Origin: a candidate division WWE3 bacterium
Lineage (GTDB): Bacteria; Patescibacteriota; WWE3; 2-01-FULL-39-13
NCBI GenBank assembly: GCA_943354835.1
Contig: CALRDH010000003.1
Location: forward strand, 12,939 to 76,938
DNA: 64,000 bases
Direction of reading: 5' to 3'
A program made the position numbers and the translations under genes. Positions 5,846 to 63,201 of the stretch are shown here, piece after piece. Numbering within the stretch: the first letter of the stretch is position 1; the number at the start of each line of letters is the position of its first letter. The notes under the pieces were generated by a model. That model saw only the letters and a program-made list of their open reading frames with translations. It was not told the origin of the DNA and ran no database searches.

Positions 5846-6352
5846 ATGAAATTCAGCACATACTTTGTCAAAGATAAGTATATAAGTGCAAAAACGGTTT
5901 TTGTACCGAGCAATTCGTTTCCGTTTGGAATTCCGATAACCACTCCATTCACTTTTCCTATTTATCAGCACAAGTACCTTTTAGCTCTAGACAAAAATAA
6001 CTGGTGGAATCCACTTGGCGGGCATATGAATGAAAGTGAAGACTGGATAAGTTGTGTAAAACGCGAAGCATTGGAAGAAGGCGGGGTGGTGATAGATAAC
6101 GTAGAAATGTTTGGTTATGTTCTATCTGAAATAATTTTTGACGAGTATAATAAATACCCAACAAAGGGCATTTTGCCAATTACGCATTCACGAGTAAAGA
6201 TGTATAAAGAAAATTGGCAAAAGTTTGAAACGAAAGACAGAAAACTTTTTACAGCTGACGAAGCAAAAGGTGCTTTGCTAAAAAGAGATGATAATAAACA
6301 AATGTATGAGGTTTTTGAATATTTAGAAAAATTATTAAAATTGTATGTATAA
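5846..6352 (+). CDS. Nudix hydrolase
   Basis: Nudix box 'GGHMNESEDWISCVKREALEEGGVV' (GX5EX7REUXEEXGU). Confidence 0.6.
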   Translation: MKFSTYFVKDKYISAKTVFVPSNSFPFGIPITTPFTFPIYQHKYLLALDKNNWWNPLGGHMNESEDWISCVKREALEEGGVVIDNVEMFGYVLSEIIFDEYNKYPTKGILPITHSRVKMYKENWQKFETKDRKLFTADEAKGALLKRDDNKQMYEVFEYLEKLLKLYV

Positions 6353-10599: not shown

Positions 10600-11114
10600 C
10601 TCAAAGTTAACATTTTTTTTATTTGATTAAAGTCACCCGAATCTTTGAACCAAATAACAGTACGTTCGGCATCTTTGATTGAAAAAAATCTTGCGTACTT
10701 AACTTTTTCAATCTGATCGTTTTTTTCGTGTGGTACAAGAAATGTATTATTTGATAATTCATTAATAAATAATACAAAACGTGCTTGAATACATGTTTCT
10801 ATATGCAGATGCGTTTTTTTATCTAAAACCTCAACTATATAATATCCAAGCATTTTTATTTTATCTCTACAAGTTGAAATGTCTAAACCTGCTTCTTCGT
10901 AAACTTCTCTGATAGCAGTTGCAGTAAGATCAGCATCATATATTTCTGTATGGCCAGCAGTAACAGTCCACTTAACATTATCTTTTGATACTAAGAGAAC
11001 TTTTTGGTCAGATGATATAACCCAACAACTAACTTGGGTTACCTTGAAATATAGGTGTTTTTTATTTATTTGTGTAGAAGATATCCATTTTAATTTGTAT
11101 TCTTTTTCAATCAT
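10596..11114 (-). CDS. Nudix hydrolase
   Basis: Nudix box 'AGHTEIYDADLTATAIREVYEEAGLD'. Confidence 0.65.
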   Translation of the reverse strand: MIEKEYKLKWISSTQINKKHLYFKVTQVSCWVISSDQKVLLVSKDNVKWTVTAGHTEIYDADLTATAIREVYEEAGLDISTCRDKIKMLGYYIVEVLDKKTHLHIETCIQARFVLFINELSNNTFLVPHEKNDQIEKVKYARFFSIKDAERTVIWFKDSGDFNQIKKMLTLS

Positions 11115-19709: not shown

Positions 19710-21029
19710 TCAAAGTTTACCCCTTAATAATTTTTCAATAATATATGGATTTTCTTTTATAAAAATTTGACTATTTATAGTCCAATGTCCTAATTGCAAT
19801 GTGGTTAATCCCTCAAGAACTCCTGCTATTTTGTCTATCTGTATTGATACTTTTGTAATGGCGAAAGTTTGTTTTGGTTTTAATACTGTATTTCCATCTG
19901 AATTAGCAACTATTTCAACATCAAATAAAATTTCTACATTAGCGATTAGTCCAAAACATTTTTTGAACGCACTAAAAATTTGTTTCTCAGCAAATTTAAA
20001 ATAATCTTGCAATGCAAATGGAACATTTCTTAGCTCCATTCCATCCGATCGCATTTGATTAAAACTGAGCCACTTTCCGGTATTTACCCTAAATTCATTC
20101 GTAGTTACCTTAAGTTCACCAGTAAAATTATTGCTAAATACTAACCCAGTACAGTAATGTGAATGCGACCTGATTATCTTCACTTTACTTAAATCGGCTA
20201 TTTTAAGGCCGAATTCTTCATAACTTTCCACAGCAATGCCATATCTAGGATGATATGGCGTTGGATTAAAACCTCCAGCAGTCGCCAAACCATACGATCC
20301 TTCTGATTGATACCAAGTTTCGCCAACCGCAATATCTCCAAATTCATTGATATGTAGAATGCCGAAATTATGTATTTTACTTTTGTCTAGGTTTGAGATG
20401 AATCTACCTAATGTGATTTTCTTTAGAGATATCCCTGAAATTGCGCGGTTTAAACTTATTAAATCATTTTTAATTTTTACACGTTTAACGAATTTCCTGT
20501 AATTTGGAAGACACAGATTAGAACAATAATTCGGTCCTAAGTTTAAATTGTATTCCCGACCTATTTCTATCTTGTAAAATGGCGAGAGATTTTTTTGAAC
20601 ATGATCGTTCGCAAAAACATCCTTATAAATTTTTTCTAAATATGCAGATTTGCAAATTGAATATATTTCATACGCAAGCAAGTTGGCTAAAACATCGTTA
20701 AGATCAGAGTAGTTACGATGGTATCTACTAATCTTATGTTTATCATTTTCAACGATATTGATTTCATCTACTCCTAGTTGAGCTGCATATCTCTCTTCGT
20801 TTAATCTTAGTATAAATTCTGAACCTGCTAAATTTAAAACCATAGAGTCCCGCCCTTCTAGTTCAGTGAAACCTAAGAGATAAGGTATTAGAGGTTTTAA
20901 TCCTCTGTGGACGAATTTAAGATTCCACTTAATTTCCGTGAAATTATATTTCACATCGACTGAATCACAGCGTGTTAGTAATTTACTAACGGCAATAAGA
21001 TTTTCCACTTTGGAAATTGGATTAATCAT
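19710..21029 (-). CDS. Hypothetical protein (439 aa), downstream partner of the palm-domain protein
   Basis: Overlaps the upstream gene by 8 nt, so it is co-transcribed. No recognisable family. Contains 'GETWYQSEGSYGLATAGGFNPTPYHPRYG'. Confidence 0.5.
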   Translation of the reverse strand: MINPISKVENLIAVSKLLTRCDSVDVKYNFTEIKWNLKFVHRGLKPLIPYLLGFTELEGRDSMVLNLAGSEFILRLNEERYAAQLGVDEINIVENDKHKISRYHRNYSDLNDVLANLLAYEIYSICKSAYLEKIYKDVFANDHVQKNLSPFYKIEIGREYNLNLGPNYCSNLCLPNYRKFVKRVKIKNDLISLNRAISGISLKKITLGRFISNLDKSKIHNFGILHINEFGDIAVGETWYQSEGSYGLATAGGFNPTPYHPRYGIAVESYEEFGLKIADLSKVKIIRSHSHYCTGLVFSNNFTGELKVTTNEFRVNTGKWLSFNQMRSDGMELRNVPFALQDYFKFAEKQIFSAFKKCFGLIANVEILFDVEIVANSDGNTVLKPKQTFAITKVSIQIDKIAGVLEGLTTLQLGHWTINSQIFIKENPYIIEKLLRGKL

Positions 21030-22482
21030 AAATTGAGTAAAAATTTAATTTACCACCTATGATTTTAGATGATATCTGCGTATTCGGTTCTATCTTAATA
21101 ATGTCAGAAATAATACGAACTCCATAATTTTCTTTATTTCTCGGATCAGAAATTTCTCCAATAAGTAAATTTGATTTAGTTGGAAATACATATTTGACTG
21201 GTATTTTGTTAATATAGTTAGTTATTTCAGCAATCATTTCATCTGACTTAGAAAGTAACAATTCTCCAAGAGTATGGCTTGGGACAACTATAACCCTTAA
21301 CACACCATAATCATTATAAAACCTACATCTGCTATACACTTCGCGATTAAATTGATAAATACCTTCAATGATATTTTTGTGGATCAGGTGTGAAAAGATT
21401 GCCAAAGACTCCTCACCGAAAGCCTCTGAAATCCCGGACCAATTTACCCAACGGTATGAAACAAGATGTAAATTCTTAAACGAATCTTGCCCCGACAAAA
21501 TGCTATATAATTCAAGATCTCTTGTATATTCAACGTTATTCTTCACAATCTCAAACGGAGATTCTTCTGAATTAAGAGTTTTATATATCATTAACATAGA
21601 TTTTTGATCTGATATTTTATGTACATTTTGATCAAGAAATATACTTTTTCTTATCAAATCGGGATATAGATAATTCATTGAGCCGACGTCTTCAGATATA
21701 CAATTATCTCGAATAATTCTAGAACCTTCATCTTTGTTAAATTTATCAAGAATTGCAAGATTTTTTAAATCAATTATATTCGGATCTATATTTTTACACG
21801 AAGTTTCAATCCAATATTTATCCCAATTGAATTCGATTTGGCGTGATTTGATACGGTCACATTGTTCTATTTGTACTTTTAAATAAACCCCGCCTTTTTT
21901 TTTGCTTTTACTATGCTTAAGGTGACTCAGATGTGTGTTAATCGCAAAATTATTAATGTTAAAGATTGAGACATCCAAACTTTTGACAATCCCATCAATG
22001 TCATTGGTTATAACAAAAAAACTAAATTCATCAATTCCATCACGAATTAAAAGCAATCCTTTATTTTCAACTCGTCCAAGTTTATTTTCAAGAATGTCTA
22101 ATACATATCGAATATATTCTATAAGAAACTTATCTGTCTTGTCATACCTATGCATTGCTAAAGATAAATTGTACATATTCCCAAAATCGATCGAAATTTT
22201 ATAAAAAACCTGATTGTTAGCTTCTGCAATAATATGAGATAAGTCTTCAAAAAATGCATAGTACTGTCCATCAATTGAATTTGATTGACGATCCACAAAT
22301 ACAAAACTCGAGATGAGTTGCTTTAATATTTGATAATCAGAAAGTGAGAAATTGTATTGCGATTGTATAGACTCCGCTAAAATCTCTTCGAAATCATTCA
22401 ATAAAAAATTTTTAGTTAGCACTATGCTCTCTACCAATCTTGGATTTATCCTAAGTTTTCCTAATAAAGTATTTAAATTCAC
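21022..22482 (-). CDS. Hypothetical protein (486 aa) with N-terminal palm-type nucleotidyltransferase/cyclase-like motifs (GGDEF/Thg1-like)
   Basis: 'FYKISIDFGNMYNLSLAMHRYDKTDKFLIEYIRYVLDIL' resembles GGDEF 'DiDhFK.iND.yGH..GD.vL' and Thg1 'VVVRLDGRNFHRF'. 52 residues later, 'LLLIRDGIDEFSFFV' resembles GGDEF 'aRyGGDEFvvll' and Thg1 'IAYGQSDEYSFVF'. Roughly 330-aa C-terminal region unrecognised. Confidence 0.5.
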   Translation of the reverse strand: MNLNTLLGKLRINPRLVESIVLTKNFLLNDFEEILAESIQSQYNFSLSDYQILKQLISSFVFVDRQSNSIDGQYYAFFEDLSHIIAEANNQVFYKISIDFGNMYNLSLAMHRYDKTDKFLIEYIRYVLDILENKLGRVENKGLLLIRDGIDEFSFFVITNDIDGIVKSLDVSIFNINNFAINTHLSHLKHSKSKKKGGVYLKVQIEQCDRIKSRQIEFNWDKYWIETSCKNIDPNIIDLKNLAILDKFNKDEGSRIIRDNCISEDVGSMNYLYPDLIRKSIFLDQNVHKISDQKSMLMIYKTLNSEESPFEIVKNNVEYTRDLELYSILSGQDSFKNLHLVSYRWVNWSGISEAFGEESLAIFSHLIHKNIIEGIYQFNREVYSRCRFYNDYGVLRVIVVPSHTLGELLLSKSDEMIAEITNYINKIPVKYVFPTKSNLLIGEISDPRNKENYGVRIISDIIKIEPNTQISSKIIGGKLNFYSIYD

Positions 22483-28788: not shown

Positions 28789-29304
28789 TTAAATAATTCC
28801 AAATTCTAAAAGAGCCCTTTGAGCAATTTCAAATTGATTTGGGAAGATTAAATAATCTTTTAAATCTGAAGGATTGATCCAATTATGGTCCTTGATTTCA
28901 CTTGCTTGAAATACCAAGTCTTCTTTATTACCTAAAAACTTAACTAAAAATTGTACCTTCTCTTGTCCCCTATACCACTTATTTCGTTTTGCAAATCCGC
29001 TTATAATATTGTCTTCTGACCACTCATACCTATTAATATATTGGCTTTGAGAAATAATTTCGAAATTAATATCGCCAAGTTCTTCTTTTAGCTCCCTAGT
29101 AATTCCCTCTGTTGGAGATTCATCATTTTCGAAACCTCCTCCGGGCAGATCCCATTCATTATCTTTATAAGAACACTTTTGAACAATCAAGATTTCATTT
29201 GAAGAATTAATCAAAAAAGCATTTGCGCCCATTCGATAAGGCATTTCGGAAATTGAAGGCATAGACATAATAGTAAATATAGCATTAAAGATGTTAAAAT
29301 CCAT
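28789..29304 (-). CDS. Nudix hydrolase
   Basis: Nudix box 'GGGFENDESPTEGITRELKEELG'. Confidence 0.65.
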   Translation of the reverse strand: MDFNIFNAIFTIMSMPSISEMPYRMGANAFLINSSNEILIVQKCSYKDNEWDLPGGGFENDESPTEGITRELKEELGDINFEIISQSQYINRYEWSEDNIISGFAKRNKWYRGQEKVQFLVKFLGNKEDLVFQASEIKDHNWINPSDLKDYLIFPNQFEIAQRALLEFGII

Positions 29305-50772: not shown

Positions 50773-50958
50773 TTATTTCCTTTTTGATAACAAAATTACT
50801 CCGAACACTACAAATAAAAGTGGCCAAAGTTTCCACATGGTTTCCCATACGCCATATTCTATGATTCCAAAATTATTTAGGATCATTATAACCCCTAGGA
50901 TTATTAATATAACCGCGGCCCAAAAACCTGAGTTTAGTTTGTTTTCTTTTGTTTCCAT
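50773..50958 (-). CDS. Small two-TM membrane protein
   Basis: 61-aa hydrophobic ORF. Its start region overlaps the 3' end of the ThyA-like gene by 25 nt. Confidence 0.35.
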   Translation of the reverse strand: METKENKLNSGFWAAVILIILGVIMILNNFGIIEYGVWETMWKLWPLLFVVFGVILLSKRK

Positions 50959-52502
50959 GACTTGATTGTATCAAATTCTAACGGATTATCTTGTGTAAAT
51001 TTAAGACCTAATTTTATTGCCGTTTCGGCTCTTTCTAATTGCCTGCCAATATATAGTGCATTTCCTAAAGTTGATATGGCAAGTCCATTATCGATTTCAA
51101 ATGAAAGTAGTCGTGATGCATACTTTTTGTTTCCATCAATCCGCCATTCTTTTATTTCTTCGTTTCCCCTCGGTGTCATCCATCTAACAACGATTTCGTC
51201 ACCTTCGACCATTACGCTTAAATTTCCTCTAGGATCCCATTCGCAGTATCCTTTGTCATTTTTTTCGTATAGTTCTTTTGCATCCTGATAATTATGCTCA
51301 TAAATATGTGCCATGTTAGAAATTGTTATTAACGAGCCCATTTCGACACCAAGTTCACTTGCAATTTTTGATTGGAGTTTTCTTAGTGCAAAAGCGTTTA
51401 ATGGCCATGCGTTGTACATATCGTTGCTTCTGAAATATGCCGTTTGTGTTAATTTCCCTTCGTATATTTGGCATTGAATCAAAAATAAACATGGAGTTTT
51501 TGTAGGCGGCCTTTTTGGAAAAACATCTGTAAATGGATTTGCTAAAAGCGCGATTGCTCCTTTATCGTATTTGAAACCTTTTAATTTTCTAACGATTGAA
51601 ATAGCAACTTGATCAAATCCTCCGTTTGTAAAAAATTCATCGAATCTTTCAAGTTTTAACCATGGATAAATTTCTTTAAGGGCATCGATTTCCAAGTGTG
51701 CAAAGTTAAATAACCTTTCACCATATGTGTAATCCTCTGTATGCGGATCTGGATCAAAAAATCCTTTAAAATATTTTTCTAAATCTTCTTTTGAGAATGG
51801 CAGATATTCTGGAACATGCCAATTTTCTGGGTCTTCGTCTGTAACAACTGCAGTCAGATTTAGCATTTCTTTCATTGTTTTTGATGTATCAGAAACGTAA
51901 TTTATAACGGCTTCAGATTCTAAACCAAACATGCTTATGTGTTTTAGTATTGAAATATAGGCTTCAGCAATTGTAGGACGCCTTATTTTTGTGGAATCAA
52001 TTTCGCTTGGATAATTTTGTACATCGGCCTTTGGCGGATCGGGGAAAATCTCGGGCTCACGCCATTTTATAGGGGCTACCCTTTTTATCAGTATGTCATT
52101 AAGTTTCTCAACGCCTATCATGTCTATAACTTCTACGTTTTTGCGAAATGCCTCAAGTGCTTCACGTGGTATTTCCTTTTCGATTTTCGCAATGTCATCG
52201 CCGATTACTTTGTAATCGGCATCGACGCCATTTTTCATAAAACGCAAAAACGCTTCACCGCTTCCCATTAAATCACTTCCAACAAGATATAATTTTGTAA
52301 TAACTGGATTTGCAAGAATATTTCGTAATATGTAATTTATGCCTTTTTTTGTATAAAGCTGGCCGGCGATATAAAAATCATCGGGGTCAACCATTTTCTC
52401 TAAAGTTTCCTTTGGAGTCCACAAAGTCGCAATCGCAACACCTGAATCGGGATTTGATAAAGTCAAACGGTCCTTAAAATAAATCGGCCAAGACATAAAC
52501 AA
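50934..52502 (-). CDS. Thymidylate synthase (ThyA) family protein with long N-terminal (~300 aa) and C-terminal (~100 aa) extensions
   Basis: Catalytic core 'TPCLFLIQCQIYEGKLTQTAYFRSNDMYNAWPLNAFALRKLQSKIASELGVEMGSLITISNMAHIYEHNY' aligns with ThyA '[41 protein letters not shown] ... GDTHLYSNH' (Cys nucleophile, RS-D, N..AS, H-Y-NH). Confidence 0.6.
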   Translation of the reverse strand: MFMSWPIYFKDRLTLSNPDSGVAIATLWTPKETLEKMVDPDDFYIAGQLYTKKGINYILRNILANPVITKLYLVGSDLMGSGEAFLRFMKNGVDADYKVIGDDIAKIEKEIPREALEAFRKNVEVIDMIGVEKLNDILIKRVAPIKWREPEIFPDPPKADVQNYPSEIDSTKIRRPTIAEAYISILKHISMFGLESEAVINYVSDTSKTMKEMLNLTAVVTDEDPENWHVPEYLPFSKEDLEKYFKGFFDPDPHTEDYTYGERLFNFAHLEIDALKEIYPWLKLERFDEFFTNGGFDQVAISIVRKLKGFKYDKGAIALLANPFTDVFPKRPPTKTPCLFLIQCQIYEGKLTQTAYFRSNDMYNAWPLNAFALRKLQSKIASELGVEMGSLITISNMAHIYEHNYQDAKELYEKNDKGYCEWDPRGNLSVMVEGDEIVVRWMTPRGNEEIKEWRIDGNKKYASRLLSFEIDNGLAISTLGNALYIGRQLERAETAIKLGLKFTQDNPLEFDTIKSWKQKKTN

Positions 52503-52536
52503 ACAATACGGGAGATCACTAAAGGAGGCAAGGGCG

Positions 52537-52818
52537 TTAAGTCTTACTCTGAGTTCTTGAATTAAGCTCGGCTTCTATAGCTGATCCGTAACTTCCTGGA
52601 GGTAGTTTCTTTAGATCTTCTAGCTTGAAACTAACTAAAAGGTTATTTACAAATGTTGCGGCCTCTTCAGCAGTCATGCCTATTTCATCTGAAACTGCCT
52701 TGGACATAATAGCAATATTCGCAAGATTTGATCCATGGCCGTATTCTCCACCATCACCAGTTGAAGACATCGTATAACTATCTTCAATTGTTTCCATTTC
52801 GAGAGGTGAAATATTCAT
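52537..52818 (-). CDS. Small acidic hypothetical protein (93 aa), paralog of the upstream 73-aa protein
   Basis: Shares 'SDEIGMTAEEAATFVNNLLVS' with the upstream 'IDEIGCEYEPGEFDAIIDAIVN' (D-E-I-G...E-E...F motif). Local GC is higher than the surroundings. Confidence 0.35.
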   Translation of the reverse strand: MNISPLEMETIEDSYTMSSTGDGGEYGHGSNLANIAIMSKAVSDEIGMTAEEAATFVNNLLVSFKLEDLKKLPPGSYGSAIEAELNSRTQSKT

Positions 52819-52842
52819 GTGGGAGATTATACGTAAATATTT

Positions 52843-53064
52843 TTAGGTAACAAGGGCAAGCCTAGCACGAATTGCTAGTTGATAATCTTCAGGGAACACA
52901 GCTATACACCCTGGATTAGAAGCAAGTATCTTGCGATTTTGGTTTACAATAGCATCTATAATCGCGTCAAACTCACCCGGCTCATATTCACAACCTATTT
53001 CATCAATTTCACGAGCTGATGTAGCCGCCTGATCTAGATTATTTCTTTCATCCCCATGTTGCAT
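52843..53064 (-). CDS. Small acidic hypothetical protein (73 aa)
   Basis: Acidic ORF with two Cys. Begins 16 nt after the PIG-L deacetylase stop and lies 24 nt before the paralogous 93-aa gene. Confidence 0.35.
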   Translation of the reverse strand: MQHGDERNNLDQAATSAREIDEIGCEYEPGEFDAIIDAIVNQNRKILASNPGCIAVFPEDYQLAIRARLALVT

Positions 53065-53079
53065 CCATTTTTAATTCTC

Positions 53080-53823
53080 CTATATCTTCACGTGTTTTAG
53101 TCTTTCAAAATTCCTTCCAGGTTCAAGGTTTGTTTCTTCTAGGAATTCTTCTTTTATGTCTTCGGGAGATAGTGCATTTTCGTGTACCAATAGTGCTTTT
53201 TCTTTTATGTCCATGTATTTTGTGATTTCAAAGTATTTAACATCTGGATACGAATATGAGTCAGAAAATAGTAATTCTCTGACGATGTGAGGTTTTAATC
53301 CGATTTTTGAGAAGTGTTCAGGAAAAAATCCACGATCTCTTGAATATGGATATGTTGCATCGAGTACAATTGATGCAGTGTTTCTATGATCACGATGATT
53401 AACCCAGCGAGTTTCTTCATTGAATGTGTTAATCGGATCAAATGGATTATGTGTAATTATGATATCTGGCCTAAATTGCCTGATATGAAAAACGATTTTT
53501 TCAATATTTGGCATTGTATTTTCAACTTCACCATCTGGAATTCCTAAATTAAAATTTTCGGATTCTGGAATACCTAGTGCAAGACCTGCCAATATTTGCT
53601 CTTTAACACGGAGTTTTGCAAATTCTGCTTCAACAATATCATCTCTGTCTTGAAATCCCTTTCCACCGTTTGTAGTAACAATAAGCCTTACTTGTTTACC
53701 TTCGGCAATAAGTCTTGCGACAATTCCTCCACAAATAATCTCATTATCATCTGGATGAGCAGTGACAATCAAAACCCTACTCTTATCGCCAAAAACCTCG
53801 TTAAAAGAATCTTTAATTGACAT
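53080..53823 (-). CDS. PIG-L/LmbE family N-acetylglucosaminyl deacetylase
   Basis: 'VLIVTAHPDDNEIICGGIVARL' (AHPDDE motif), 'HRDHRN', and a Zn-ligand pattern of the LmbE fold. Confidence 0.8.
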   Translation of the reverse strand: MSIKDSFNEVFGDKSRVLIVTAHPDDNEIICGGIVARLIAEGKQVRLIVTTNGGKGFQDRDDIVEAEFAKLRVKEQILAGLALGIPESENFNLGIPDGEVENTMPNIEKIVFHIRQFRPDIIITHNPFDPINTFNEETRWVNHRDHRNTASIVLDATYPYSRDRGFFPEHFSKIGLKPHIVRELLFSDSYSYPDVKYFEITKYMDIKEKALLVHENALSPEDIKEEFLEETNLEPGRNFERLKHVKI

Positions 53824-53839
53824 GGTGAATTTATAACAC
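53794..53839. repeat. Direct repeat copy 1 (46 bp): promoter-proximal region plus first 12 codons of the PIG-L deacetylase gene
   Basis: aacctcgttaaaaGaatctttaattGacatggtGaatttataacac. Identical at 43 of 46 positions to 54669-54714. Confidence 0.85.
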
Positions 53840-53858
53840 TCTACATAACAAAAAGCTA

Positions 53859-54122
53859 TTAGAATCTAAATATTATTGGTAAAACTTGAATTATTGCAAG
53901 AATAACCCCAACAATAGATAGAATAGTTGTAACCTTAGTTAATTTGCTATTTTGAGTATTTAAATCAAGAATAGTCTTTCTCAATAGTGACATCTCCTTC
54001 AGAAGATCAATATTAATTTTTGCTAAAGTCGCAGTAACAGAAATGTGCTCTTGCTGTCCAGCATTGCCTGTTTGAGGATTTTTCTCTATTTTATTTAAAG
54101 TTTTTACTATCTCTTCGTGCAT
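53859..54122 (-). CDS. Small protein with C-terminal TM anchor
   Basis: 87 aa, helical, with C-terminal 'ILSIVGVILAIIQVLPIIF'. Ends 1 nt before the DHFR-like gene. Confidence 0.35.
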   Translation of the reverse strand: MHEEIVKTLNKIEKNPQTGNAGQQEHISVTATLAKINIDLLKEMSLLRKTILDLNTQNSKLTKVTTILSIVGVILAIIQVLPIIFRF

Positions 54123-54123
54123 A

Positions 54124-54648
54124 TTAGATCTCCACGTTTTTTTTAACTTTATATTTCAAATGGATTAGGTCTTCATCGTATTTATCTATGCTAATAAGCT
54201 CTAGTGCTAAATCAGCATCTACAGGTTTAAACAAATTGATTCCTCTACCCAAAATTAGCGGATGTACGCTTAAGATTACCTCATCAATCACGCCAGCTTT
54301 TAAAAATGATGCATTTATTATTCCACCACCGATTAGTAGCACAGAATTCAGTCCCCTTTTTTCAAGTTCTTCTAGTAGCTCGTTTGGAGCTAGATCAGTA
54401 ATAAATTTGGTTGGAGAGTCAACGTGTAAAGACTTATTCGTAGTAAGCACAACATTTAACTTATTATTGCCATATGGGAAATCATCTCCACTTACCTCCA
54501 TTGTTTTTCTTCCCATTACAATAGCATCTGAATTTTCTACATACCTCTCTAATTGGGCCCAATCGGTATCACACACCCAATCAGTACCATGATTCTGTGT
54601 TGCAATATAACCATTGGCTGTTATAGCCATGTATAAAGTTAACTTCAT
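54124..54648 (-). CDS. Dihydrofolate reductase family protein (RibD C-terminal domain-like)
   Basis: 'MKLTLYMAITANGYIA ... AIVMGRKTME ... LLIGGGIINASFLKAGVIDEVILSVHPLILGRG' is the RibD_C/DHFR-like signature. Confidence 0.7.
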   Translation of the reverse strand: MKLTLYMAITANGYIATQNHGTDWVCDTDWAQLERYVENSDAIVMGRKTMEVSGDDFPYGNNKLNVVLTTNKSLHVDSPTKFITDLAPNELLEELEKRGLNSVLLIGGGIINASFLKAGVIDEVILSVHPLILGRGINLFKPVDADLALELISIDKYDEDLIHLKYKVKKNVEI

Positions 54649-54668
54649 AAAATTATTATGCCATAAAT

Positions 54669-54714
54669 AACCTCGTTAAAAAAATCTTTAATTAACATGG
54701 TAAATTTATAACAC
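54669..54714. repeat. Direct repeat copy 2 (46 bp), forming a 17-codon uORF whose TGA overlaps the DHFR-like start (ATGA)
   Basis: aacctcgttaaaaAaatctttaattAacatggtAaatttataacac. Minus-strand translation MLIKDFFNEVIYGIIIL* terminates at 54645-54647, overlapping ATG 54646-54648 of the DHFR-like gene. Confidence 0.85.
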
Positions 54715-54771
54715 GAACTTACAAAACGAATTATCCTAAAATGAAAAATGTGGTAAAAATGTAAATCCAGT

Positions 54772-55989
54772 TTAATAATTCTTGTCTTGTACTCTCAAAA
54801 TATATTTCTCCAATAATGGAACTGCAAAAGAATAATTTCCGTTACTATCACGATACAATAATCCTGCAGCAATTAACCTTTTGAACATTTGGCTAACCTG
54901 AGATCTACCAAAGCTTTTCACTTTACCTCCCTCAGATAAAGATACAATTTCATGCACTTTAAATTTTGTTTTTCCTGAATTTGCTATTAAAGTTAATAAA
55001 TCCCTTTCCCTCTCTGTTGCTTTTGCCCACCTTCCCGAGAAAAAATCACTATCTAGTTTTTGAATAATTGCATCCATAGGGATAGAGAGTTCTTGCCCCG
55101 CACTTAATTGTTGTAGAAATACATCAAATACTTCACGACAGATATACTGTATAAAAAATGGATAGCCACCTGATTGTTGAGCAATTTCTTCAACTGCATT
55201 TTCGTTAAATCTTAAAGGGTGTTGTGACATTTCTACAGGTTTGAGTATCGCCATTTTACTCTCTTCTTTAGTGAGTTTCTCTAACATAACAACATGGAAC
55301 AATCTTTCAGAGTAAGTCCTTGTTTCCACCAAGTTAGCAAGTAACATAGGTAATCCTGTAAGGACAAGAATGAATGGTATGTTTTTCTTCTGAATATATG
55401 TAAAAACATCCAAAAGTAATGAAAGTGGATATTGCTTATCTTCTGAATGATCACTTAGAGTTTGTGCCTCGTCATACGCAAATACAAAACCCTTTATAGT
55501 CTGTAATGTTTCTAAATGTTGCCAGACCATTTCCAAAGTTGCTTTTAACTTATCGCTTATAAACCCAGGAATTTCAGCAAAATAAGCCACCAAGTAAGAA
55601 TAATTTAAGTAAACATCGCTTGTCTTTTTATCGTCACCAAACCCGATTTCGTTTTTTGCTATTGTACCGATCTTTATGTTTGATGTTATCAAAGCAATAT
55701 CTGTTAAAATCCTCATAGCCATAGTCTCTTCGCTAACGCTTACACTTTCAGCACAATCAGTACCTGCCCACAACCAATTATCTTTTCGCGCAACTGGTTT
55801 TAAGCTTTCCAATAAAACTGTTTTACCAATACCGCGCAATCCTGAAATTATCAAATTTTTTAAGATTGTATTTTGCTTGAGCAATTTTTCGAATTCTTGT
55901 ATTTCTAGGTTGCGTCCGGCTAAATATGGCGGCGTATGCCCAGCACCAGGTTTAAAAGGGTTTTCAAATGTTGAAATATAATTACTCAT
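54772..55989 (-). CDS. Orphan AAA ATPase (archaeal-ATPase/PF01637-like P-loop with C-terminal winged-helix region)
   Basis: Walker A 'ISGLRGIGKTVLLESL', Walker B-like 'FVFAYDEAQTL', and a C-terminal helical/wHTH-like tail. Confidence 0.55.
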   Translation of the reverse strand: MSNYISTFENPFKPGAGHTPPYLAGRNLEIQEFEKLLKQNTILKNLIISGLRGIGKTVLLESLKPVARKDNWLWAGTDCAESVSVSEETMAMRILTDIALITSNIKIGTIAKNEIGFGDDKKTSDVYLNYSYLVAYFAEIPGFISDKLKATLEMVWQHLETLQTIKGFVFAYDEAQTLSDHSEDKQYPLSLLLDVFTYIQKKNIPFILVLTGLPMLLANLVETRTYSERLFHVVMLEKLTKEESKMAILKPVEMSQHPLRFNENAVEEIAQQSGGYPFFIQYICREVFDVFLQQLSAGQELSIPMDAIIQKLDSDFFSGRWAKATERERDLLTLIANSGKTKFKVHEIVSLSEGGKVKSFGRSQVSQMFKRLIAAGLLYRDSNGNYSFAVPLLEKYILRVQDKNY

Positions 55990-55995
55990 ACAAAC

Positions 55996-56019
55996 AACGT
56001 TACAATGCTACGTAACGTT
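55996..56019. promoter_or_regulatory. Perfect 8-bp inverted repeat AACGTTAC-N8-GTAACGTT (candidate operator)
   Basis: aacgttac aatgctac gtaacgtt, directly upstream of the AAA ATPase start (55989). Confidence 0.4.
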
Positions 56020-56067
56020 AATCAACAGGCTAATACAGACCACACTACGTTCGTATTTTATTCGGGG

Positions 56068-56107
56068 CGTTACAAAGTGTTACCCCATGGGCTAACGCTT
56101 TGTAACG
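56068..56107. promoter_or_regulatory. 40-bp imperfect palindrome (18/20 arms) CGTTACAAAGTGTTACCCCA|TGGGCTAACGCTTTGTAACG
   Basis: The reverse complement of the right arm is cgttacaaagCgttaGccca, against the left arm cgttacaaagTgttaCccca. Contains the nested palindrome CCCATGGG and shares the CGTTAC half-site with the upstream inverted repeat. Confidence 0.45.
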
Positions 56108-56157
56108 TTTAAGATAAAATGTTGATATCACTTGCATTTTAACAATATGCCAATCGT

Positions 56158-56679
56158 CTATCCAACTGCACAAATTTCTAAATCTCTTAGTTTTGCCGTT
56201 TCAGTTTTGCAGTCGGTGTAAATAAATGAAGCGAATGCGGTTCCTTGGTTTTCATCAACGATGTATTTGATTAATGCTTTTACAGATGGAAATAAGTTAT
56301 CACAATTAGTTAGCTCTTCTTTTGTTAACCAAACAAACTCACCTTCTAAAGTTTGTTTAATTTCACCGGACTCATAGTCTCCAGAATAGTGAAAAATTAG
56401 CCAGTTTTCATTCGGTTTATGAGGTTCAATTTCTGTAACAACGGCTTCAAGACGAATATTTTTTACAGTCAGACCTGTTTCTTCCATTAATTCACGCTTG
56501 GAAGCCCTTAAAGGCTCTTCGTTTTGATCAACCTTTCCACCTGCAGGATGAAAAAAACCTGGAGCAATCTTTTTTTGCTCGGACCTTTTCAAAACCAAAA
56601 TCTTTCCATCCTTACGGACAAACATATTCGCACACATGACGATATTATGAGTATTTATCGCGGAATTAATCGATTGCAT
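56158..56679 (-). CDS. Nudix hydrolase
   Basis: Nudix box 'AGGKVDQNEEPLRASKRELMEETGL'. Confidence 0.65.
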   Translation of the reverse strand: MQSINSAINTHNIVMCANMFVRKDGKILVLKRSEQKKIAPGFFHPAGGKVDQNEEPLRASKRELMEETGLTVKNIRLEAVVTEIEPHKPNENWLIFHYSGDYESGEIKQTLEGEFVWLTKEELTNCDNLFPSVKALIKYIVDENQGTAFASFIYTDCKTETAKLRDLEICAVG

Positions 56680-60536: not shown

Positions 60537-62279
60537 ATGCAAATTTCTGATCCAACACTGGGAAACAACGAACAGATAGCAACAATTTTACCAACAAATA
60601 CAGAACCACGATCAGAACGTTTTCAAAGATTCTTTCGTGAAAATGTTACAGGAGCATTCACAGAAAAAGAGCGGTTACAAAACGAAACTCACGTTGCAAG
60701 ATTTTGCGATACTTTTTTAAGACACCTTTCACCTTTCGAAAGAGTAGAAAAAGCAGAAGACATAAATAGTACAATGGTAAGTTTTGTAAATTGGGAAAAA
60801 CAGCAAGGAAGAGGACAGGTTGGTAGATGGATCGGTGGACAGGTCATGCAAATTGATAGAACTGATAATGTATATGACGTTATTGCACATGAAAGCATGC
60901 ATGTTCTACAAAATAACGGCACGTTACCACCAAACCATCCAATCACATATTCAATAAACGAACTTTTATTAGCGCAAAGAGGATCGATTCCAGTGTATCC
61001 ATCTGAAAGTAGTGAATTTGCAGCTATTAAATCAGAATATAAATCAAAATCAGCAAATGATTATTTTAACGAGGTTCTATCTGGAGGAAAAAATCTTCCA
61101 AAATGGTTTTGGGGCGGATGGAGACTAGACTTATCTGATGAAAGATACCAAAATATAGACCCACGAGACACAAGTTTACGAGATTTCAAAAGATTTTTAG
61201 AAATAGAAAAAGAAATAGAACCTGAAATACTAGCATGGGGCGAGGTTTCTCTTGACATTATGGGAGTAAAAGACGTCTATACAACCATAGCGAATATTGG
61301 AACATCAAGAGGCCTTCGTGCGTTTGGAGTCGGACATTTCACAGGTGATCCAAAAAATGCATGGACAGTTTTATGGCTTAACGCAACAGGGATGAAATTT
61401 GAAGATGCAGAAAGACTAGTTGTACAAAAATATCTTGATGGAACATTATCAGATTTTGATATAAAAAACCCAATAGAAGGAAAAGACTTCAAAAGGATAA
61501 AAACAGGAGAGGAAATATATAAAACGAGAAAATTAGATCAATCACCGATTGAAAGAACAGCTAACAAATATAAATTTCAAATTGAACAATATTTAAGGTT
61601 AGTAAAAAGGTCATTTAGGCAATTGCCACAAGAAGAGCTAGACAATAGGTATTCCTTATTTAGTGAATGGATATCATCAAACAAAGTAAAAGACACCGAA
61701 ACATCAGAGGTTTTTTTGGTAATGGATGAAATAACAAATCAAATGGATTTTGAGTTAAAAGAATCAGTAGAAGATAAAGTCGAGAAATCTGGAAAAATTT
61801 TTGCGTCTCATGACAGAAGTGGCACACGCAGAAAATTATCAATACCAAAAGTGATCCCTGGGAAAGAGTTTTCGACCAATCCCCCAGAATTCGAAACCGT
61901 TCTAACGGAAGAAGTCGGTATTTTCCACACACATATTTATCATGGATCCCCTCCTTCGATAATTGATTTACTAAATTTTATAGACGCTCCGGATAAATTT
62001 ATTTCTGTAATGGCCACACCTGAAAAAGATTACGTCTTTGTAAAGACTGACAAAGAATGTATTGATCGGAACAACAATAATAATAAAGGAAGCAAATTTA
62101 GAAATAGGGTTGGCCTTGCAAAATCATATATGCAGAGACTTTATAAAGGTGAAGACTCAGAAAAAGTAATCATAGAAATGGCAAAACTTGAAGGAATGGA
62201 AGTATTTATTAAAAATAAACCAAGTATTTCACGTCTAAGACAATCCAATCTAGGAATAATTCAATTCAAGAAGGTCTAA
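60537..62279 (+). CDS. Hypothetical protein (580 aa) with HExxH zincin-like motif
   Basis: 'NVYDVIAHESMHVLQNNG' contains HESMH. Begins 3 nt after the elp3 stop. No signal peptide. Confidence 0.4.
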   Translation: MQISDPTLGNNEQIATILPTNTEPRSERFQRFFRENVTGAFTEKERLQNETHVARFCDTFLRHLSPFERVEKAEDINSTMVSFVNWEKQQGRGQVGRWIGGQVMQIDRTDNVYDVIAHESMHVLQNNGTLPPNHPITYSINELLLAQRGSIPVYPSESSEFAAIKSEYKSKSANDYFNEVLSGGKNLPKWFWGGWRLDLSDERYQNIDPRDTSLRDFKRFLEIEKEIEPEILAWGEVSLDIMGVKDVYTTIANIGTSRGLRAFGVGHFTGDPKNAWTVLWLNATGMKFEDAERLVVQKYLDGTLSDFDIKNPIEGKDFKRIKTGEEIYKTRKLDQSPIERTANKYKFQIEQYLRLVKRSFRQLPQEELDNRYSLFSEWISSNKVKDTETSEVFLVMDEITNQMDFELKESVEDKVEKSGKIFASHDRSGTRRKLSIPKVIPGKEFSTNPPEFETVLTEEVGIFHTHIYHGSPPSIIDLLNFIDAPDKFISVMATPEKDYVFVKTDKECIDRNNNNNKGSKFRNRVGLAKSYMQRLYKGEDSEKVIIEMAKLEGMEVFIKNKPSISRLRQSNLGIIQFKKV

Positions 62280-62756
62280 TTTAACTCCATTCTTTTCTAA
62301 AAACTCAATCCCACTTTCATCTGTGTGTTTTGATATGTAGTAGATTTTTTTGATGCCGGCTTGGATTATGGTTTTTGCGCATATGTAGCATGGTGAGTTT
62401 GTTAGGAATATTGTCATTTCTGATGTTTCAATTCCGTATTTTGCACATTTGGCAATTAGGTTTGCTTCAGCATGTATGGAACAAACTTTTTGGAATTCCC
62501 TACCCTTTAGGTTTTCAGTTTGCCTTATGCAGCTTCCGTTTTGGCAGAAAATTTCGCCTTTTAGAGTTTCGTTCCAGGTTTTTAAATAAATGAAGCCATC
62601 TTTTCTTCTAAATTGCGGGTCTTTGGGGGCATCTGGCGAAATTTTCTGCCCTTCGTCTTTTACGACTCCAACACATCCAATTTTATATCCACATGTAGAA
62701 TTCCCCGCAATAAAAGCAGCCTTTTTCAAAAAATCATTTATTTGAGTTGCATTCAT
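62250..62756 (-). CDS. dCMP/cytidine deaminase family protein (zinc-dependent, ComEB-like)
   Basis: 'CSIHAEANLIAKCAKYG' (H-A-E) and 'SPCYICAKTI' (PCxxC). Start taken at the internal Met (MNATQINDF) to avoid a long overlap with the HIT gene. Confidence 0.75.
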   Translation of the reverse strand: MNATQINDFLKKAAFIAGNSTCGYKIGCVGVVKDEGQKISPDAPKDPQFRRKDGFIYLKTWNETLKGEIFCQNGSCIRQTENLKGREFQKVCSIHAEANLIAKCAKYGIETSEMTIFLTNSPCYICAKTIIQAGIKKIYYISKHTDESGIEFLEKNGVKLDLLELNYS

Positions 62757-63201
62757 TACGAAGCCTTTCAGCAAGTTCAATTGGAGGAATAGTGAGATCC
62801 TGATAATTCCAATTAACAATCTCCTTTTTGTAAGGTAAAACCAACATGTGACAATGTGGAACCGTCTTTTGAGCTTTAAAGCCATTAGGAGCTCTGAACA
62901 AAAGCCAAATTTCTTCTATACCAAGTTCTTTTCTTAATAATTTAATTCCAAGCTCGGCTAAATCTCTCATATCGGCCCAAACTTTAGGATCAACTTCTAA
63001 AAAATCCTCGACATGATTAATTGGAATTACAAGCAAATGTCCATCAATATAAGGAAACAGATTAACTGTTAAAACTGCACTCGCGTTTTTTGCGACTATG
63101 TATTTATCCTTTAGATCGCAAAAAACGCACTTCCCTGTATTCGTCCAAATATCTTTATATCTTCCAGTCTTTCTTGCATTAAAATCCGAATAATCTGGCA
63201 T
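62734..63201 (-). CDS. HIT family hydrolase
   Basis: 'TVPHCHMLVLP' histidine triad HxHxHxx. 'CVFCDL' N-terminal. Confidence 0.75.
   Translation of the reverse strand: MPDYSDFNARKTGRYKDIWTNTGKCVFCDLKDKYIVAKNASAVLTVNLFPYIDGHLLVIPINHVEDFLEVDPKVWADMRDLAELGIKLLRKELGIEEIWLLFRAPNGFKAQKTVPHCHMLVLPYKKEIVNWNYQDLTIPPIELAERLRNECNSNK

What the first reader, a model, noticed from the sequence alone, without database searches (positions are those of the whole stretch)
50934..52502. Thymidylate-synthase-fold enzyme with large N- and C-terminal extensions, near DHFR-like and dCMP deaminase genes
The ThyA catalytic core is clear (Pro-Cys nucleophile, GKL, RS-D, N..A, HIYEHNY). It is preceded by ~300 aa and followed by ~100 aa of unassigned sequence, so the protein is twice the size of bacterial ThyA. 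Such divergent ThyA-family members can be hydroxymethylases or modify other pyrimidine nucleotides (dCMP/dUMP hydroxymethylases) rather than make dTMP. The window also holds a RibD-C/DHFR-like protein and a dCMP deaminase. These may form a pyrimidine-modification or salvage route suited to a reduced genome.
Basis: partly seen in the sequence, partly recalled or inferred. Interest (0 to 1): 0.5.

Follow-up and report, generated by a model that had tools for sequence, protein, structure and literature searches.

The report
Three-domain thymidylate synthase of CPR/DPANN
This gene encodes a thymidylate synthase (the enzyme that makes the DNA building block dTMP) whose archaeal-type catalytic core sits between two extra domains of unknown role; the layout is shared by hundreds of ultra-small bacteria and archaea, and I found no published study of it.

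Summary
The anatomy is different from what was described. It has three domains: an MtrA-like Rossmann domain (aa 4-155), a short methanogen/archaeal-type ThyA core (aa 173-417), and a PterinBD-DUF4346 domain (aa 418-510). The N-extension is therefore about 170 aa, not 300, and both extensions match known Pfam families.

Across 79 relatives from CPR bacteria and DPANN archaea, Cys146, Arg166, Asp169, Asn177 and the Tyr94 equivalent are invariant. That is the dUMP/thymidylate signature. It is not the dCMP (N177D), hydroxymethylase (L143D/E) or flavin 5-hydroxylase (D169N) signature.

A dCMP deaminase gene lies directly upstream in 41 of 80 related loci and is fused to the protein in one relative. 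Thymidylate kinase lies directly downstream in nine loci. The DHFR-like gene sits on a 3.6-kb strain-specific indel and is linked in 0 of 80 loci.

The MtrA-like domain lacks the cobalamin ligand (His84 is Ser/Thr, Glu54 is Lys). DUF4346 has no informative structural relative.

Most likely this is the dTMP synthase of these lineages. Its accessory module and its C1 donor are uncharacterised. It is a new variant of a known kind, of moderate interest.

The parts
50934..52502 (-). Whole ORF: three-domain thymidylate-synthase fusion. 522 aa from the TTG at 52502; more likely 520 aa from the ATG at 52496.
   Evidence: the exact 520-aa product is on 5 public contigs; hundreds of full-length homologues
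52038..52493 (-). N-terminal MtrA-like Rossmann-type domain (aa 4-155). It lacks the corrinoid ligands.
52260..52262 (-). Ser81 codon, the position of MtrA's cobalt ligand His84.
   Evidence: Ser 70, Thr 6, His 0 of 79 relatives; coordinates checked
51987..52037 (-). Low-confidence linker (aa 156-172).
   Evidence: pLDDT dips to about 62; least conserved stretch
51252..51986 (-). Short archaeal/methanogen-type ThyA core (aa 173-417), with a lineage-specific insert of about 30 aa at aa 266-295.
51489..51491 (-). Catalytic nucleophile Cys338 (E. coli Cys146), within an invariant Pro-Cys.
   Evidence: 79/79; alignments; coordinates
51396..51431 (-). R358-S-N-D361...W-P-L-N369 block, equivalent to E. 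coli Arg166, Ser167, Asp169 and Asn177 (dUMP binding and uracil specificity).
   Evidence: Arg, Asp and Asn each 79/79; alignments
51723..51725 (-). Tyr260, equivalent to E. coli Tyr94 (YGxR motif).
   Evidence: 79/79; aligned by hmmsearch and hhalign
50973..51251 (-). C-terminal PterinBD-DUF4346 domain (aa 418-510; three strands then two helices; conserved DPRGN and QD motifs).
62250..62885 (-). dCMP deaminase-like gene, the conserved functional partner. Here it is about 9.7 kb upstream; in most relatives it is adjacent.
   Evidence: Pfam PF00383; present in 43/80 loci, 29 with a gap under 300 nt; clusters of 30 + 11 loci; fused in P0219
54124..54648 (-). It is not a conserved partner and lies inside the strain-specific indel at about 52533-56168.
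   Evidence: Pfam PF01872 83.8 bits and PF00186 31.9 bits; 0/80 loci; indel relative to L001

Best explanation
The gene encodes the thymidylate synthase (dUMP to dTMP) of a candidate-division WWE3 (CPR/Patescibacteria) bacterium.

Catalytic core. The core (aa 173-417) is a short ThyA of the archaeal/methanogen type. Inferred from classical ThyA chemistry, Cys338 attacks C6 of dUMP. dUMP is held by Arg358/Ser359, by Lys314 (the Arg126 equivalent, Arg in most relatives) and by Asn369. A methylene-pterin C1 donor bound against Asp361 is then transferred and reduced to the methyl group, with Tyr260 helping proton abstraction.

Pathway. dUMP comes from the dCMP deaminase that is this protein's conserved operon or fusion partner. 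dTMP goes on to thymidylate kinase.

Accessory module. The core is inserted between the two halves of an MtrA-like + DUF4346 module. That module occurs contiguously in other proteins. The MtrA-like half has lost the His-on cobalamin site but keeps a conserved ligand pocket. The short core lacks the C-terminal strands and folate-closing tail of classical ThyA, so I infer that the module supplies cofactor-binding or active-site-closing surface, or binds a regulatory ligand.

Shown: the architecture, the residue conservation, the gene context and the taxonomic spread.
Inferred: the reaction, the C1 donor and the role of the module.
For: TS identity:
- Pfam PF00303 and TIGR03283 hits.

Active site:
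- Cys146, Arg166, Asp169, Asn177 and the Tyr94 equivalent are 79/79 in bacterial and archaeal relatives. Tyr209 is 75/79. The Arg126 equivalent is Arg or Lys in 78/79.
- Asn177 and Asp169 are the published markers of dUMP-methylating enzymes, as against dCMP enzymes and flavin hydroxylases (PMC13326640).

Context:
- dCMP deaminase (PF00383) abuts the gene upstream on the same strand in 41 loci, with a median gap of 3 nt for the short form.
- P0219 fuses MtrA-like, TS, DUF4346 and dCMP deaminase in one chain.
- Thymidylate kinase is directly downstream in 9 loci.
- No ThyX motif and no other TS was found in the parts of the window that were annotated.

Module:
- NCBIfam NF002128 matches both the N-domain (model 128-269) and the C-domain (model 312-369), so the two are contiguous elsewhere.
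- The AF2 model is confident: pLDDT 89.5.

Spread:
- More than 400 homologues. 125 genomic loci in CPR and DPANN. 550 representatives at E <= 1e-10 for the N-domain.
Against: - No member of this family has been assayed. According to PMC9931769, archaeal-type ThyA has not been followed up experimentally.
- The TIGR03283 score (about 135 bits) is below that model's cut-off of 174.55.
- The residue equivalent to E. coli Leu143, thought to exclude water and so favour methyl over hydroxymethyl, is polar here: K29, R15, N14, H7, D5 of 79. The preceding loop is variable, so this alignment is uncertain.
- Arg127 is Gly in this protein and in 51 of 79 relatives.
- Arg21, Glu58 and Trp80 could not be mapped. 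hhalign covers only E. coli residues 90-217.
- The classical C-terminal folate-closing tail is absent.
- The role of the accessory module is pure inference. I had no access to model coordinates or PAE.
- Catalytically dead relatives keep both accessory domains, so the module cannot be only a helper of TS catalysis.
- I could not check whole genomes for a second TS (ThyX or ThyA).
Confidence: 0.72

Rival explanations
1. One reading: it is a pyrimidine-modifying enzyme, such as a dUMP hydroxymethylase or an enzyme acting on another nucleotide, rather than a dTMP synthase.
For: - The Leu143 equivalent is not hydrophobic, so the proposed water-exclusion feature is missing.
- The archaeal-type core has never been shown to complete the dTMP reaction.
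Against: - N177 and D169 are invariant, so the dCMP/CMP and 5-hydroxylase signatures are absent. The L143 equivalent is acidic in only 5 of 79.
- The family is spread through cellular CPR and DPANN genomes, not phages.
- It sits between dCMP deaminase and thymidylate kinase. I noticed no glycosyltransferase or hypermodification genes recurring with it.
- No alternative TS was seen in the annotated parts of the window.
Confidence: 0.08
2. A mechanistically new thymidylate synthase. The MtrA-like domain carries the C1 unit, for example as methyl-cobamide bound without a histidine ligand or as a protein-held pterin, and hands it to the Cys-activated dUMP. No dihydrofolate would be produced.
For: - Residues of MtrA's nucleotide-tail pocket are kept: D17 = D11, T53 = T/S51, G57 = G54, N64 = N61, V61 = I58.
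- The loops that hold the corrin ring in MtrA are the most conserved part of the N-domain.
- DUF4346 also occurs at the C-terminus of the dihydropteroate synthase-like family TIGR00284.
- The core lacks the classical folate-closing tail.
- No DHFR gene is conserved nearby.
Against: - The cobalt ligand His84, its partner Glu54, Asn55, the DMB-stacking Tyr18 and the GAIPF-x-EN motif are all replaced across the family.
- The core keeps Asp169 and the Tyr94 equivalent, which serve the methylene-folate mechanism.
- From general knowledge, CPR and DPANN organisms usually lack cobamide synthesis.
- There is no direct evidence for any bound cofactor.
Confidence: 0.07
3. The accessory module is a cofactor-recycling (reductase) unit. 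The protein would then be a functional analogue of protozoan DHFR-TS and would regenerate the tetrahydro-pterin itself.
For: - There is precedent for TS fused to its recycling enzyme (DHFR-TS chains appear among the PDB hits).
- No DHFR gene is linked in 80 loci.
- The N-domain has a Rossmann-type fold.
Against: - No match to any DHFR, NAD(P)- or flavin-binding family in Pfam or NCBIfam.
- This genome carries its own DHFR-like gene.
Confidence: 0.05
4. The accessory module is regulatory or structural only, for example in oligomerisation or allosteric ligand sensing, and the TS core works like any ThyA.
For: - Degenerate relatives have lost the TS active site yet keep both accessory domains (P0159, P0186, P0195, P0175). 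The module therefore has a role that does not need TS catalysis.
- The DUF4346 fold resembles small binding or adaptor proteins.
Against: - The N-domain has many invariant polar residues in its loop positions, which is typical of a specific ligand site.
- The short core lacks elements that classical ThyA needs to bind folate, so something probably compensates.
- This reading overlaps with the best explanation rather than excluding it.
Confidence: 0.08

Closest known systems
Methanogen/archaeal-type thymidylate synthase (NCBIfam TIGR03283, thy_syn_methano)
   Same: The best-matching TS model. It aligns end to end (model 3-200 of 201) with aa 173-407. It is the same short core, which ends before the C-terminal strands and tail of classical ThyA.
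   Different: The score of about 135 bits is below the 174.55 cut-off. TIGR03283 is a model of only 201 positions, whereas this core is embedded between an MtrA-like and a DUF4346 domain. The host is a CPR bacterium, not a methanogen.
Classical ThyA (E. coli / L. casei; Pfam PF00303)
   Different: Only about 20% identity. His147 is Leu, Arg127 is Gly, Leu143 is Lys, Gln165 is Phe. The Arg21 loop seems to be missing (judged by eye; not aligned by any tool). There is no C-terminal folate-closing tail. Two extra domains are present.
Cytoplasmic MtrA homologue / MtrA corrinoid subunit of the Mtr complex (PDB 5laa, 5l8x; PMC4915002)
   Different: His84, Glu54, Asn55, Tyr18 and the GAIPF-x-EN motif are all replaced. 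There is no membrane anchor, and no mtr genes were seen in the annotated parts of the window. The domain is fused to a TS.
NCBIfam NF002128 (PRK00964.1-6), a 390-aa family annotated 'MtrA'
   Same: It contains both an MtrA-like region and a DUF4346-like region. These match the N-domain (model 128-269) and the C-domain (model 312-369) of this protein.
   Different: In that family the two regions are contiguous, with no TS between them, and there is an extra N-terminal stretch of about 105 aa. This protein scores 85 bits against a cut-off of 568.
Bifunctional DHFR-TS of protozoa and plants
   Same: A TS fused to another folate-related domain in one chain of about 520 aa.
   Different: There is no DHFR domain here. 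The fused domains are MtrA-like and DUF4346, and the TS is the middle domain, not the C-terminal one.
Phage TS-fold hydroxylases and hydroxymethylases (9iqc 5-hydroxy-dCMP synthase, T4 dCMP hydroxymethylase, MilA)
   Different: Their diagnostic substitutions (N177D, D169N, L143D/E) are absent here.

Membership tests
ThyA-type thymidylate synthase (PF00303, EC 2.1.1.45) | TS fold and a profile score above the curated threshold | tested here: met
ThyA-type thymidylate synthase (PF00303, EC 2.1.1.45) | Catalytic Cys in a Pro-Cys motif (E. coli Cys146) | tested here: met
   Pro337-Cys338, 79/79
ThyA-type thymidylate synthase (PF00303, EC 2.1.1.45) | dUMP-binding and uracil-specifying residues Arg166, Ser167, Asp169, Asn177 | tested here: met
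   Arg, Asp and Asn are each 79/79. Position 167 is Ser 59, Asn 19, Ala 1
ThyA-type thymidylate synthase (PF00303, EC 2.1.1.45) | Tyr94 general base and Tyr209 | tested here: met
   Tyr260 79/79; Tyr401 75/79
ThyA-type thymidylate synthase (PF00303, EC 2.1.1.45) | Arg126'/Arg127' phosphate clamp contributed by the partner subunit | tested here: inconclusive
   The Arg126 equivalent is Arg 58 / Lys 20 (Lys here). The Arg127 equivalent is Gly 51 / Arg 23 (Gly here)
ThyA-type thymidylate synthase (PF00303, EC 2.1.1.45) | Arg21, Glu58 and Trp80 in the N-terminal half | tested here: inconclusive
   Profile alignments cover only E. coli residues 90-217. Candidates are E212 or E223.
ThyA-type thymidylate synthase (PF00303, EC 2.1.1.45) | Bulky hydrophobic residue at Leu143 (favours the methyl product) | tested here: not met
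   The residue at Cys-3 is K29, R15, N14, H7, D5, Q3, S3, T2, V1. The flanking loop is variable, so the equivalence is uncertain.
ThyA-type thymidylate synthase (PF00303, EC 2.1.1.45) | C-terminal strands and terminal carboxylate that close over the folate | tested here: not met
   The core ends at about aa 417, where TIGR03283 also ends, and runs straight into DUF4346
ThyA-type thymidylate synthase (PF00303, EC 2.1.1.45) | dTMP formation or thyA complementation | not testable with these tools
   Needs an experiment
Methanogen-type TS (TIGR03283 equivalog) | Score at or above the curated cut-off of 174.55 bits | tested here: not met
   133.6 bits for the full protein, 135.7 for the core alone, although the model is covered end to end
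MtrA corrinoid protein (PF04208 / TIGR01111) | MtrA fold and a Pfam score above threshold | tested here: met
MtrA corrinoid protein (PF04208 / TIGR01111) | Cobalt ligand His84 with its Glu54 partner | tested here: not met
   The His84 position is Ser 70 / Thr 6 / His 0. The Glu54 position is Lys 60 of 79; feature defined in PMC4915002
MtrA corrinoid protein (PF04208 / TIGR01111) | Conserved 109-GAIPF/Y-x-EN meander motif | tested here: not met
   The query has IA-KIEKE, and the columns are variable across the family
MtrA corrinoid protein (PF04208 / TIGR01111) | TIGR01111 equivalog score and mtr operon context | tested here: not met
   49-52 bits against a cut-off of 249. No Mtr subunits among the annotated genes of the window
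PterinBD-DUF4346 (PF14251) | Pfam score above the gathering threshold | tested here: met
   32.1 bits against 29.6. Relatives score up to 66 bits
dCMP/CMP hydroxymethylases (T4 gp42, MilA) | Asp at the Asn177 position and an acidic residue at Leu143 | tested here: not met
   Asn 79/79; Asp at the Leu143 equivalent in 5/79; markers
Flavin-dependent 5-hydroxy-dCMP synthases (9iqc type) | D169N together with N177D | tested here: not met
   Asp169 79/79 and Asn177 79/79; marker from PMC13326640
Bifunctional DHFR-TS | A DHFR domain in the same chain | tested here: not met
   No DHFR_1 or RibD_C hit in the protein
NCBIfam NF002128 (390-aa 'MtrA' with DUF4346) | Score at or above 568 bits, with the MtrA-like and DUF4346 regions contiguous | tested here: not met
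   85 bits. Both regions match but are separated by the 245-aa TS core

The most novel reading that the evidence does not exclude
This fusion could be a third mechanistic solution to thymidylate synthesis, used by CPR bacteria and DPANN archaea. A ThyA-like core would activate dUMP through Cys338. The C1 unit would be delivered by the attached MtrA-like/DUF4346 module, for example as a methyl-cobamide held without a histidine ligand or as a tightly held non-folate pterin, rather than by freely diffusing methylene-tetrahydrofolate. That would explain the missing folate-closing tail and the lack of a linked DHFR.
Probability: 0.08. Interest if true: 0.9.

Novelty: new variant of a known kind. 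Interest (0 to 1): 0.5.

Why it matters
Thymidylate synthesis is essential for every DNA-based cell, and two enzyme classes (ThyA and ThyX) are thought to cover it. Two things follow from this analysis.

- In this sampling, the TS homologue carried by many CPR bacteria and DPANN archaea is a conserved three-domain protein. These are two very large, mostly uncultured radiations with reduced metabolism.
- The catalytic core belongs to the archaeal type, which has not been followed up experimentally. Its two flanking domains have no known role in nucleotide metabolism.

From general knowledge, not tested here, these organisms usually cannot make folate. The C1 donor they use, and how the oxidised cofactor is recycled, are therefore open questions. 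A soluble bacterial member such as this one would make them directly testable.

For annotation, the practical points are:
- The 'MtrA' hit does not indicate methanogenesis-type or corrinoid chemistry.
- Truncated 395-aa relatives are not thymidylate synthases.
- The neighbouring DHFR-like gene is not part of a conserved unit.

Tried and rejected
I rebuilt the alignment from slices of eligible proteins.
4. Profile search of DUF4346 against PDB sequences found nothing (best E = 0.75).
5. Literature searches for DUF4346, for 'MtrA-like' with thymidylate, for CPR/DPANN with ThyA, and for methanogen TS found no description of the fusion. Two CPR papers mention only ordinary thyA and folA.
6. The exhaustive N-domain profile search was meant to find non-fusion relatives. 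Its top 150 were saturated by fusions and fragments, so the NF002128-type proteins were not retrieved. It did reveal the four-domain and the degenerate variants.
7. The first single-linkage clustering of neighbours merged unrelated families through multidomain proteins. I redid it with reciprocal coverage.
8. Rejected: a conserved DHFR-TS gene pair (0/80 loci); a His-on corrinoid site; dCMP or 5-hydroxylase specificity.
9. Not possible: a genome-wide search for ThyX, ThyA or FolA in the complete genomes that carry the fusion.
10. The promoter and terminator scan around the gene found fewer sites than in shuffled sequence, so it was uninformative.
Full report

The ORF listing gives one 522-aa ORF on the minus strand at 50934..52502, starting at a TTG. 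An ATG lies two codons in, at 52496. The 520-aa product from that ATG is recorded verbatim on five public contigs with the same gene order, so 50934..52496 is the likelier gene.

They are far beyond chance:
- Pfam Thymidylat_synt scores 47.5 bits against a cut-off of 24.3.
- A profile of the family's TS region matches solved ThyA chains at E = 4e-19.
- hhalign against E. coli ThyA gives 98% probability.

**2. The anatomy differs from the description.**

The protein has three domains.

| Region (aa) | Identity | Evidence |
|---|---|---|
| 173-407 | TIGR03283, methanogen-type TS | aligns with model positions 3-200 of 201; 133.6-135.7 bits, below the 174.55 cut-off |
| 423-505 | Pfam PterinBD-DUF4346 | 32.1 bits, cut-off 29.6 |

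The N-terminal extension is therefore about 170 aa, not about 300. Neither extension is unassigned.

**3. This is a large family, not a one-off.**

- A search of 5.8 billion proteins returned 402 hits. The best 120 are nearly all full-length, 36-91% identical, and carry the same three Pfam domains. A few are annotated 'thymidylate synthase' or 'hypothetical protein' from Patescibacteria.
- A scan of one genome per species found 125 loci. The nearest is a candidate division WWE3 MAG at 91% identity, with conserved synteny, so the window is from a WWE3 (CPR) bacterium.
- Full-length members occur in many CPR groups: WWE3, Dojkabacteria, Shapirobacteria, Collierbacteria, Kerfeldbacteria, Paceibacterota and Microgenomates.
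- They also occur in DPANN archaea (Woese-, Pace-, Aenigmat-, Micrarchaeota, Nanobdellota) and in a few Clostridia and Chloroflexota MAGs.
- A rough neighbour-joining tree without support values separates a mainly CPR clade, which contains the query, from a mainly DPANN clade. Some CPR and Chloroflexota sequences nest inside the DPANN clade. This suggests exchange between the two domains.

**4. What the TS core says about substrate and product.**

In 79 bacterial and archaeal relatives:
- The equivalents of E. coli Cys146, Arg166, Asp169, Asn177 and Tyr94 are invariant.
- Tyr209 is 75/79.
- The Arg126 equivalent is Arg or Lys in 78/79.
- His147 is Leu, Met, Ile or Phe throughout (Leu 62).
- The Arg127 equivalent is Gly in 51 and Arg in 23.

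- N177D marks dCMP or CMP as substrate.
- L143D/E marks hydroxymethylases.
- D169N marks flavin-dependent 5-hydroxy-dCMP synthases.

This family has Asn177 and Asp169 without exception, so it does not carry the dCMP or the hydroxylase signature. The Leu143 equivalent is polar and mostly basic (K29, R15, N14, H7, D5). It is neither the hydrophobic residue of classical ThyA nor the acidic residue of hydroxymethylases. The loop before the Pro-Cys is variable, so I treat this feature as failed but uncertain. It is the main sequence argument still open for a hydroxymethylase.

Arg21, Glu58 and Trp80 could not be mapped, because the profile alignments stop at E. coli residue 90. The core ends where TIGR03283 ends. 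It therefore lacks the last strands and the folate-closing C-terminus of classical ThyA.

**5. Gene context.**

I compared the window's neighbours with 80 related loci (plus or minus 6 kb).
- A dCMP deaminase homologue is present in 43 loci. In 39 it is upstream on the same strand, and in 29 the gap is under 300 nt.
- Reciprocal-coverage clustering resolves a short form directly upstream in 30 loci (median gap 3 nt) and a 321-aa long form in 11 more. Both are confirmed as PF00383.
- One relative, P0219 (733 aa), carries MtrA-like, TS, DUF4346 and dCMP deaminase in a single chain.
- Thymidylate kinase (PF02223) lies directly downstream in nine loci, for example the Pacearchaeota locus L059; median gap 73 nt.

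This is the ordinary de novo route: dCMP to dUMP to dTMP to dTDP. In the window itself the deaminase (62250-62885) has drifted about 9.7 kb away.

The DHFR-like gene (RibD_C 83.8 bits, DHFR_1 31.9 bits) is found in none of the 80 loci. Against the 91%-identical relative L001, window positions of about 52533-56168 are an indel. That segment carries two small ORFs, a PIG-L deacetylase, an 87-aa ORF, the DHFR-like gene and an AAA ATPase. The DHFR-like gene may well recycle dihydrofolate in this strain, but it is not part of a conserved unit.

No ThyX motif and no second TS turned up in the parts of the window that I annotated. ORFs between about 32.5 and 38.9 kb were not scanned against Pfam.

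**6. The MtrA-like domain.**

Wagner et al. (PMC4915002) define cobalamin binding in MtrA by these features:
- the cobalt ligand His84 and its partner Glu54;
- Asn55 and the backbone NH of Asn82, which contact the corrin side chains;
- a nucleotide-tail pocket (Asp17, Lys52, Thr53, Gly57, Asn64), with the base stacked between Tyr18 and Val61;
- the motif 109-GAIPF/Y-x-EN.

The 5laa chain numbering equals the paper's numbering. On that basis the query has:
- His84 to Ser81, followed by a two-residue deletion;
- Glu54 to Lys52;
- Asn55 to Lys53;
- Tyr18 to Arg12;
- no GAIPxxEN motif.

Across the family, the His84 position is Ser 70 / Thr 6 / His 0 and the Glu54 position is Lys 60 of 79. Several tail-pocket residues do persist: Asp11, Thr/Ser51, Gly54, Ile58 and Asn61. 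The loops that carry the corrin in MtrA are the best-conserved part of the domain, for example G-Q-L-Y-T/S-K-R/K-G-I-N and R-N-x-L-A-N-P.

My reading is that a specific ligand pocket survives but it is not a His-on corrinoid site. The 'MtrA' label must not be taken as evidence of methanogenesis-type chemistry.

**7. The DUF4346 domain and the module as a whole.**

NCBIfam NF002128 is a 390-aa family annotated 'MtrA'. It matches both the N-domain (model 128-269) and the C-domain (model 312-369). The DHPS-like family TIGR00284 matches the DUF4346 tail. MtrA-like plus DUF4346 is therefore a module that occurs contiguously elsewhere, and here the TS core sits between its halves.

An exhaustive profile search with the N-domain found 1085 representatives at E <= 1e-3 and 550 at E <= 1e-10. 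Among them are proteins of about 395 aa (P0159, P0186, P0195) in which the centre of the TS core has been deleted, including the Pro-Cys and YGxR motifs. In another (P0175) the nucleophile is Asn. All keep the MtrA-like domain, and P0159, P0186 and P0195 also keep DUF4346 (P0175 ends just inside it). P0159 is encoded in an archaeal MAG with no nucleotide-metabolism neighbours. The module therefore has some role that does not depend on TS catalysis.

**8. Most likely mechanism.**

I commit to a dUMP-methylating thymidylate synthase (confidence about 0.7).
- Shown: the architecture, the invariant catalytic set, the deaminase and kinase context, and the fusion with deaminase.
- Inferred from classical ThyA chemistry: Cys338 adds to C6 of dUMP; a methylene-pterin bound against Asp361 donates the carbon and the hydride; Tyr260 assists deprotonation.
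- Inferred with low confidence: the MtrA-like/DUF4346 module replaces the missing C-terminal cofactor-closing elements, or binds a ligand that controls the enzyme.

The rivals are:
- a hydroxymethylase or other modifying enzyme (about 0.08);
- a C1-carrier or cobamide-type new mechanism (about 0.07);
- a built-in reductase (about 0.05);
- a purely regulatory or structural module (about 0.08, and compatible with the main reading).

**9. Comparison with known families, and novelty.**

It works like ThyA, and by fold and active site it belongs to the ThyA superfamily. It is closest to the methanogen-type clade but falls below that model's cut-off. It fails two classical ThyA features: the Leu143 residue and the C-terminal tail.

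It is not a functional member of the MtrA corrinoid family, because the ligand residues were tested and are not met. It is not a DHFR-TS.

Eight full-text searches found no description of the fusion. 'DUF4346' occurs in no searchable paper. Filée et al. (PMC9931769) note that archaeal thymidylate synthases have not been followed up experimentally. Databases already hold hundreds of members, some annotated 'thymidylate synthase'.

I rate it a new variant of a known kind, with interest about 0.5. The gene is very probably ordinary in function. What is unusual is a conserved, unexplained architecture that appears to be a common way of making dTMP in two very large, poorly understood radiations, together with an open question about the C1 donor.

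Noticed in passing
window 52533-56168: A 3.6-kb segment is absent from the 91%-identical WWE3 relative L001. It holds two small ORFs, a PIG-L deacetylase, an 87-aa ORF, the RibD_C/DHFR-like gene and an AAA_16 ATPase. In L001 the NUDIX gene lies only about 650 nt from the TS gene. It looks like a strain-specific insertion or deletion.
   Followed up: partly
proteins P0159, P0186, P0195 (about 395 aa) and P0175 (409 aa); P0159 at L082:8001-9188: These relatives keep the MtrA-like domain, and the three ~395-aa ones also DUF4346, but have a gutted TS core. The Pro-Cys nucleophile and YGxR region are deleted, or the Cys is replaced by Asn. They are probable pseudo-enzymes. P0159 is in an archaeal MAG without nucleotide-metabolism neighbours.
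   Followed up: partly
protein P0219 (733 aa): A four-domain chain: MtrA-like, TS, DUF4346 and dCMP deaminase (PF00383 at aa 568-675). P0205 (862 aa) and P0211 (625 aa) carry long N-terminal extensions before the MtrA-like domain.
   Followed up: partly
L049:4993-5955 and ten other loci: A long form of dCMP deaminase (321 aa) sits directly upstream of the fusion. Its deaminase domain is at aa 185-297, and it is preceded by about 180 residues with no Pfam match.
   Followed up: no
L059:6785-8137: A 451-aa protein lies directly downstream of the fusion in the Pacearchaeota locus L059 (similar genes in eight other loci). It has two thymidylate-kinase stretches, so it looks like a tandem-duplicated Tmk.
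   Followed up: no
L013:4008-4949, L024:2293-2799 and about 20-25 other CPR loci: A cytidylyltransferase-like gene (PF01467) and a HIT-family gene (PF01230) recur upstream of the deaminase and TS pair. An APH-type kinase gene recurs convergently downstream in 20 loci. This may be a larger conserved nucleotide-related cluster.
   Followed up: no
window 5846-6352, 10596-11114, 28789-29304, 56158-56679: There are four separate NUDIX hydrolase genes within 64 kb. That is many for a small genome, and it may relate to nucleotide-pool sanitation.
   Followed up: no
window 50773-50958: A 61-aa LiaF/LiaI-like transmembrane ORF overlaps the 3' end of the TS gene by 25 nt. It was found only in the closest relative, L001.
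   Followed up: no
window 19710-22482 and 60537-62279: Three large ORFs (439, 486 and 580 aa) have no Pfam match. The 580-aa ORF region did not align to L001 by blastn.
   Followed up: no
loci L050, L055, L065, L077, L080, L079: In a rough NJ tree these CPR and Chloroflexota sequences group inside the DPANN-dominated clade rather than with the main CPR clade. This hints at inter-domain transfer of the fusion gene. No support values were computed.
   Followed up: partly
protein P0195 aa 266-392 against TIGR00284 model 363-496: The match to the archaeal DHPS-like family extends about 50 residues upstream of the Pfam DUF4346 boundary, into what is a TS remnant here. The true domain boundary of DUF4346 may be wider than the Pfam model.
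   Followed up: no
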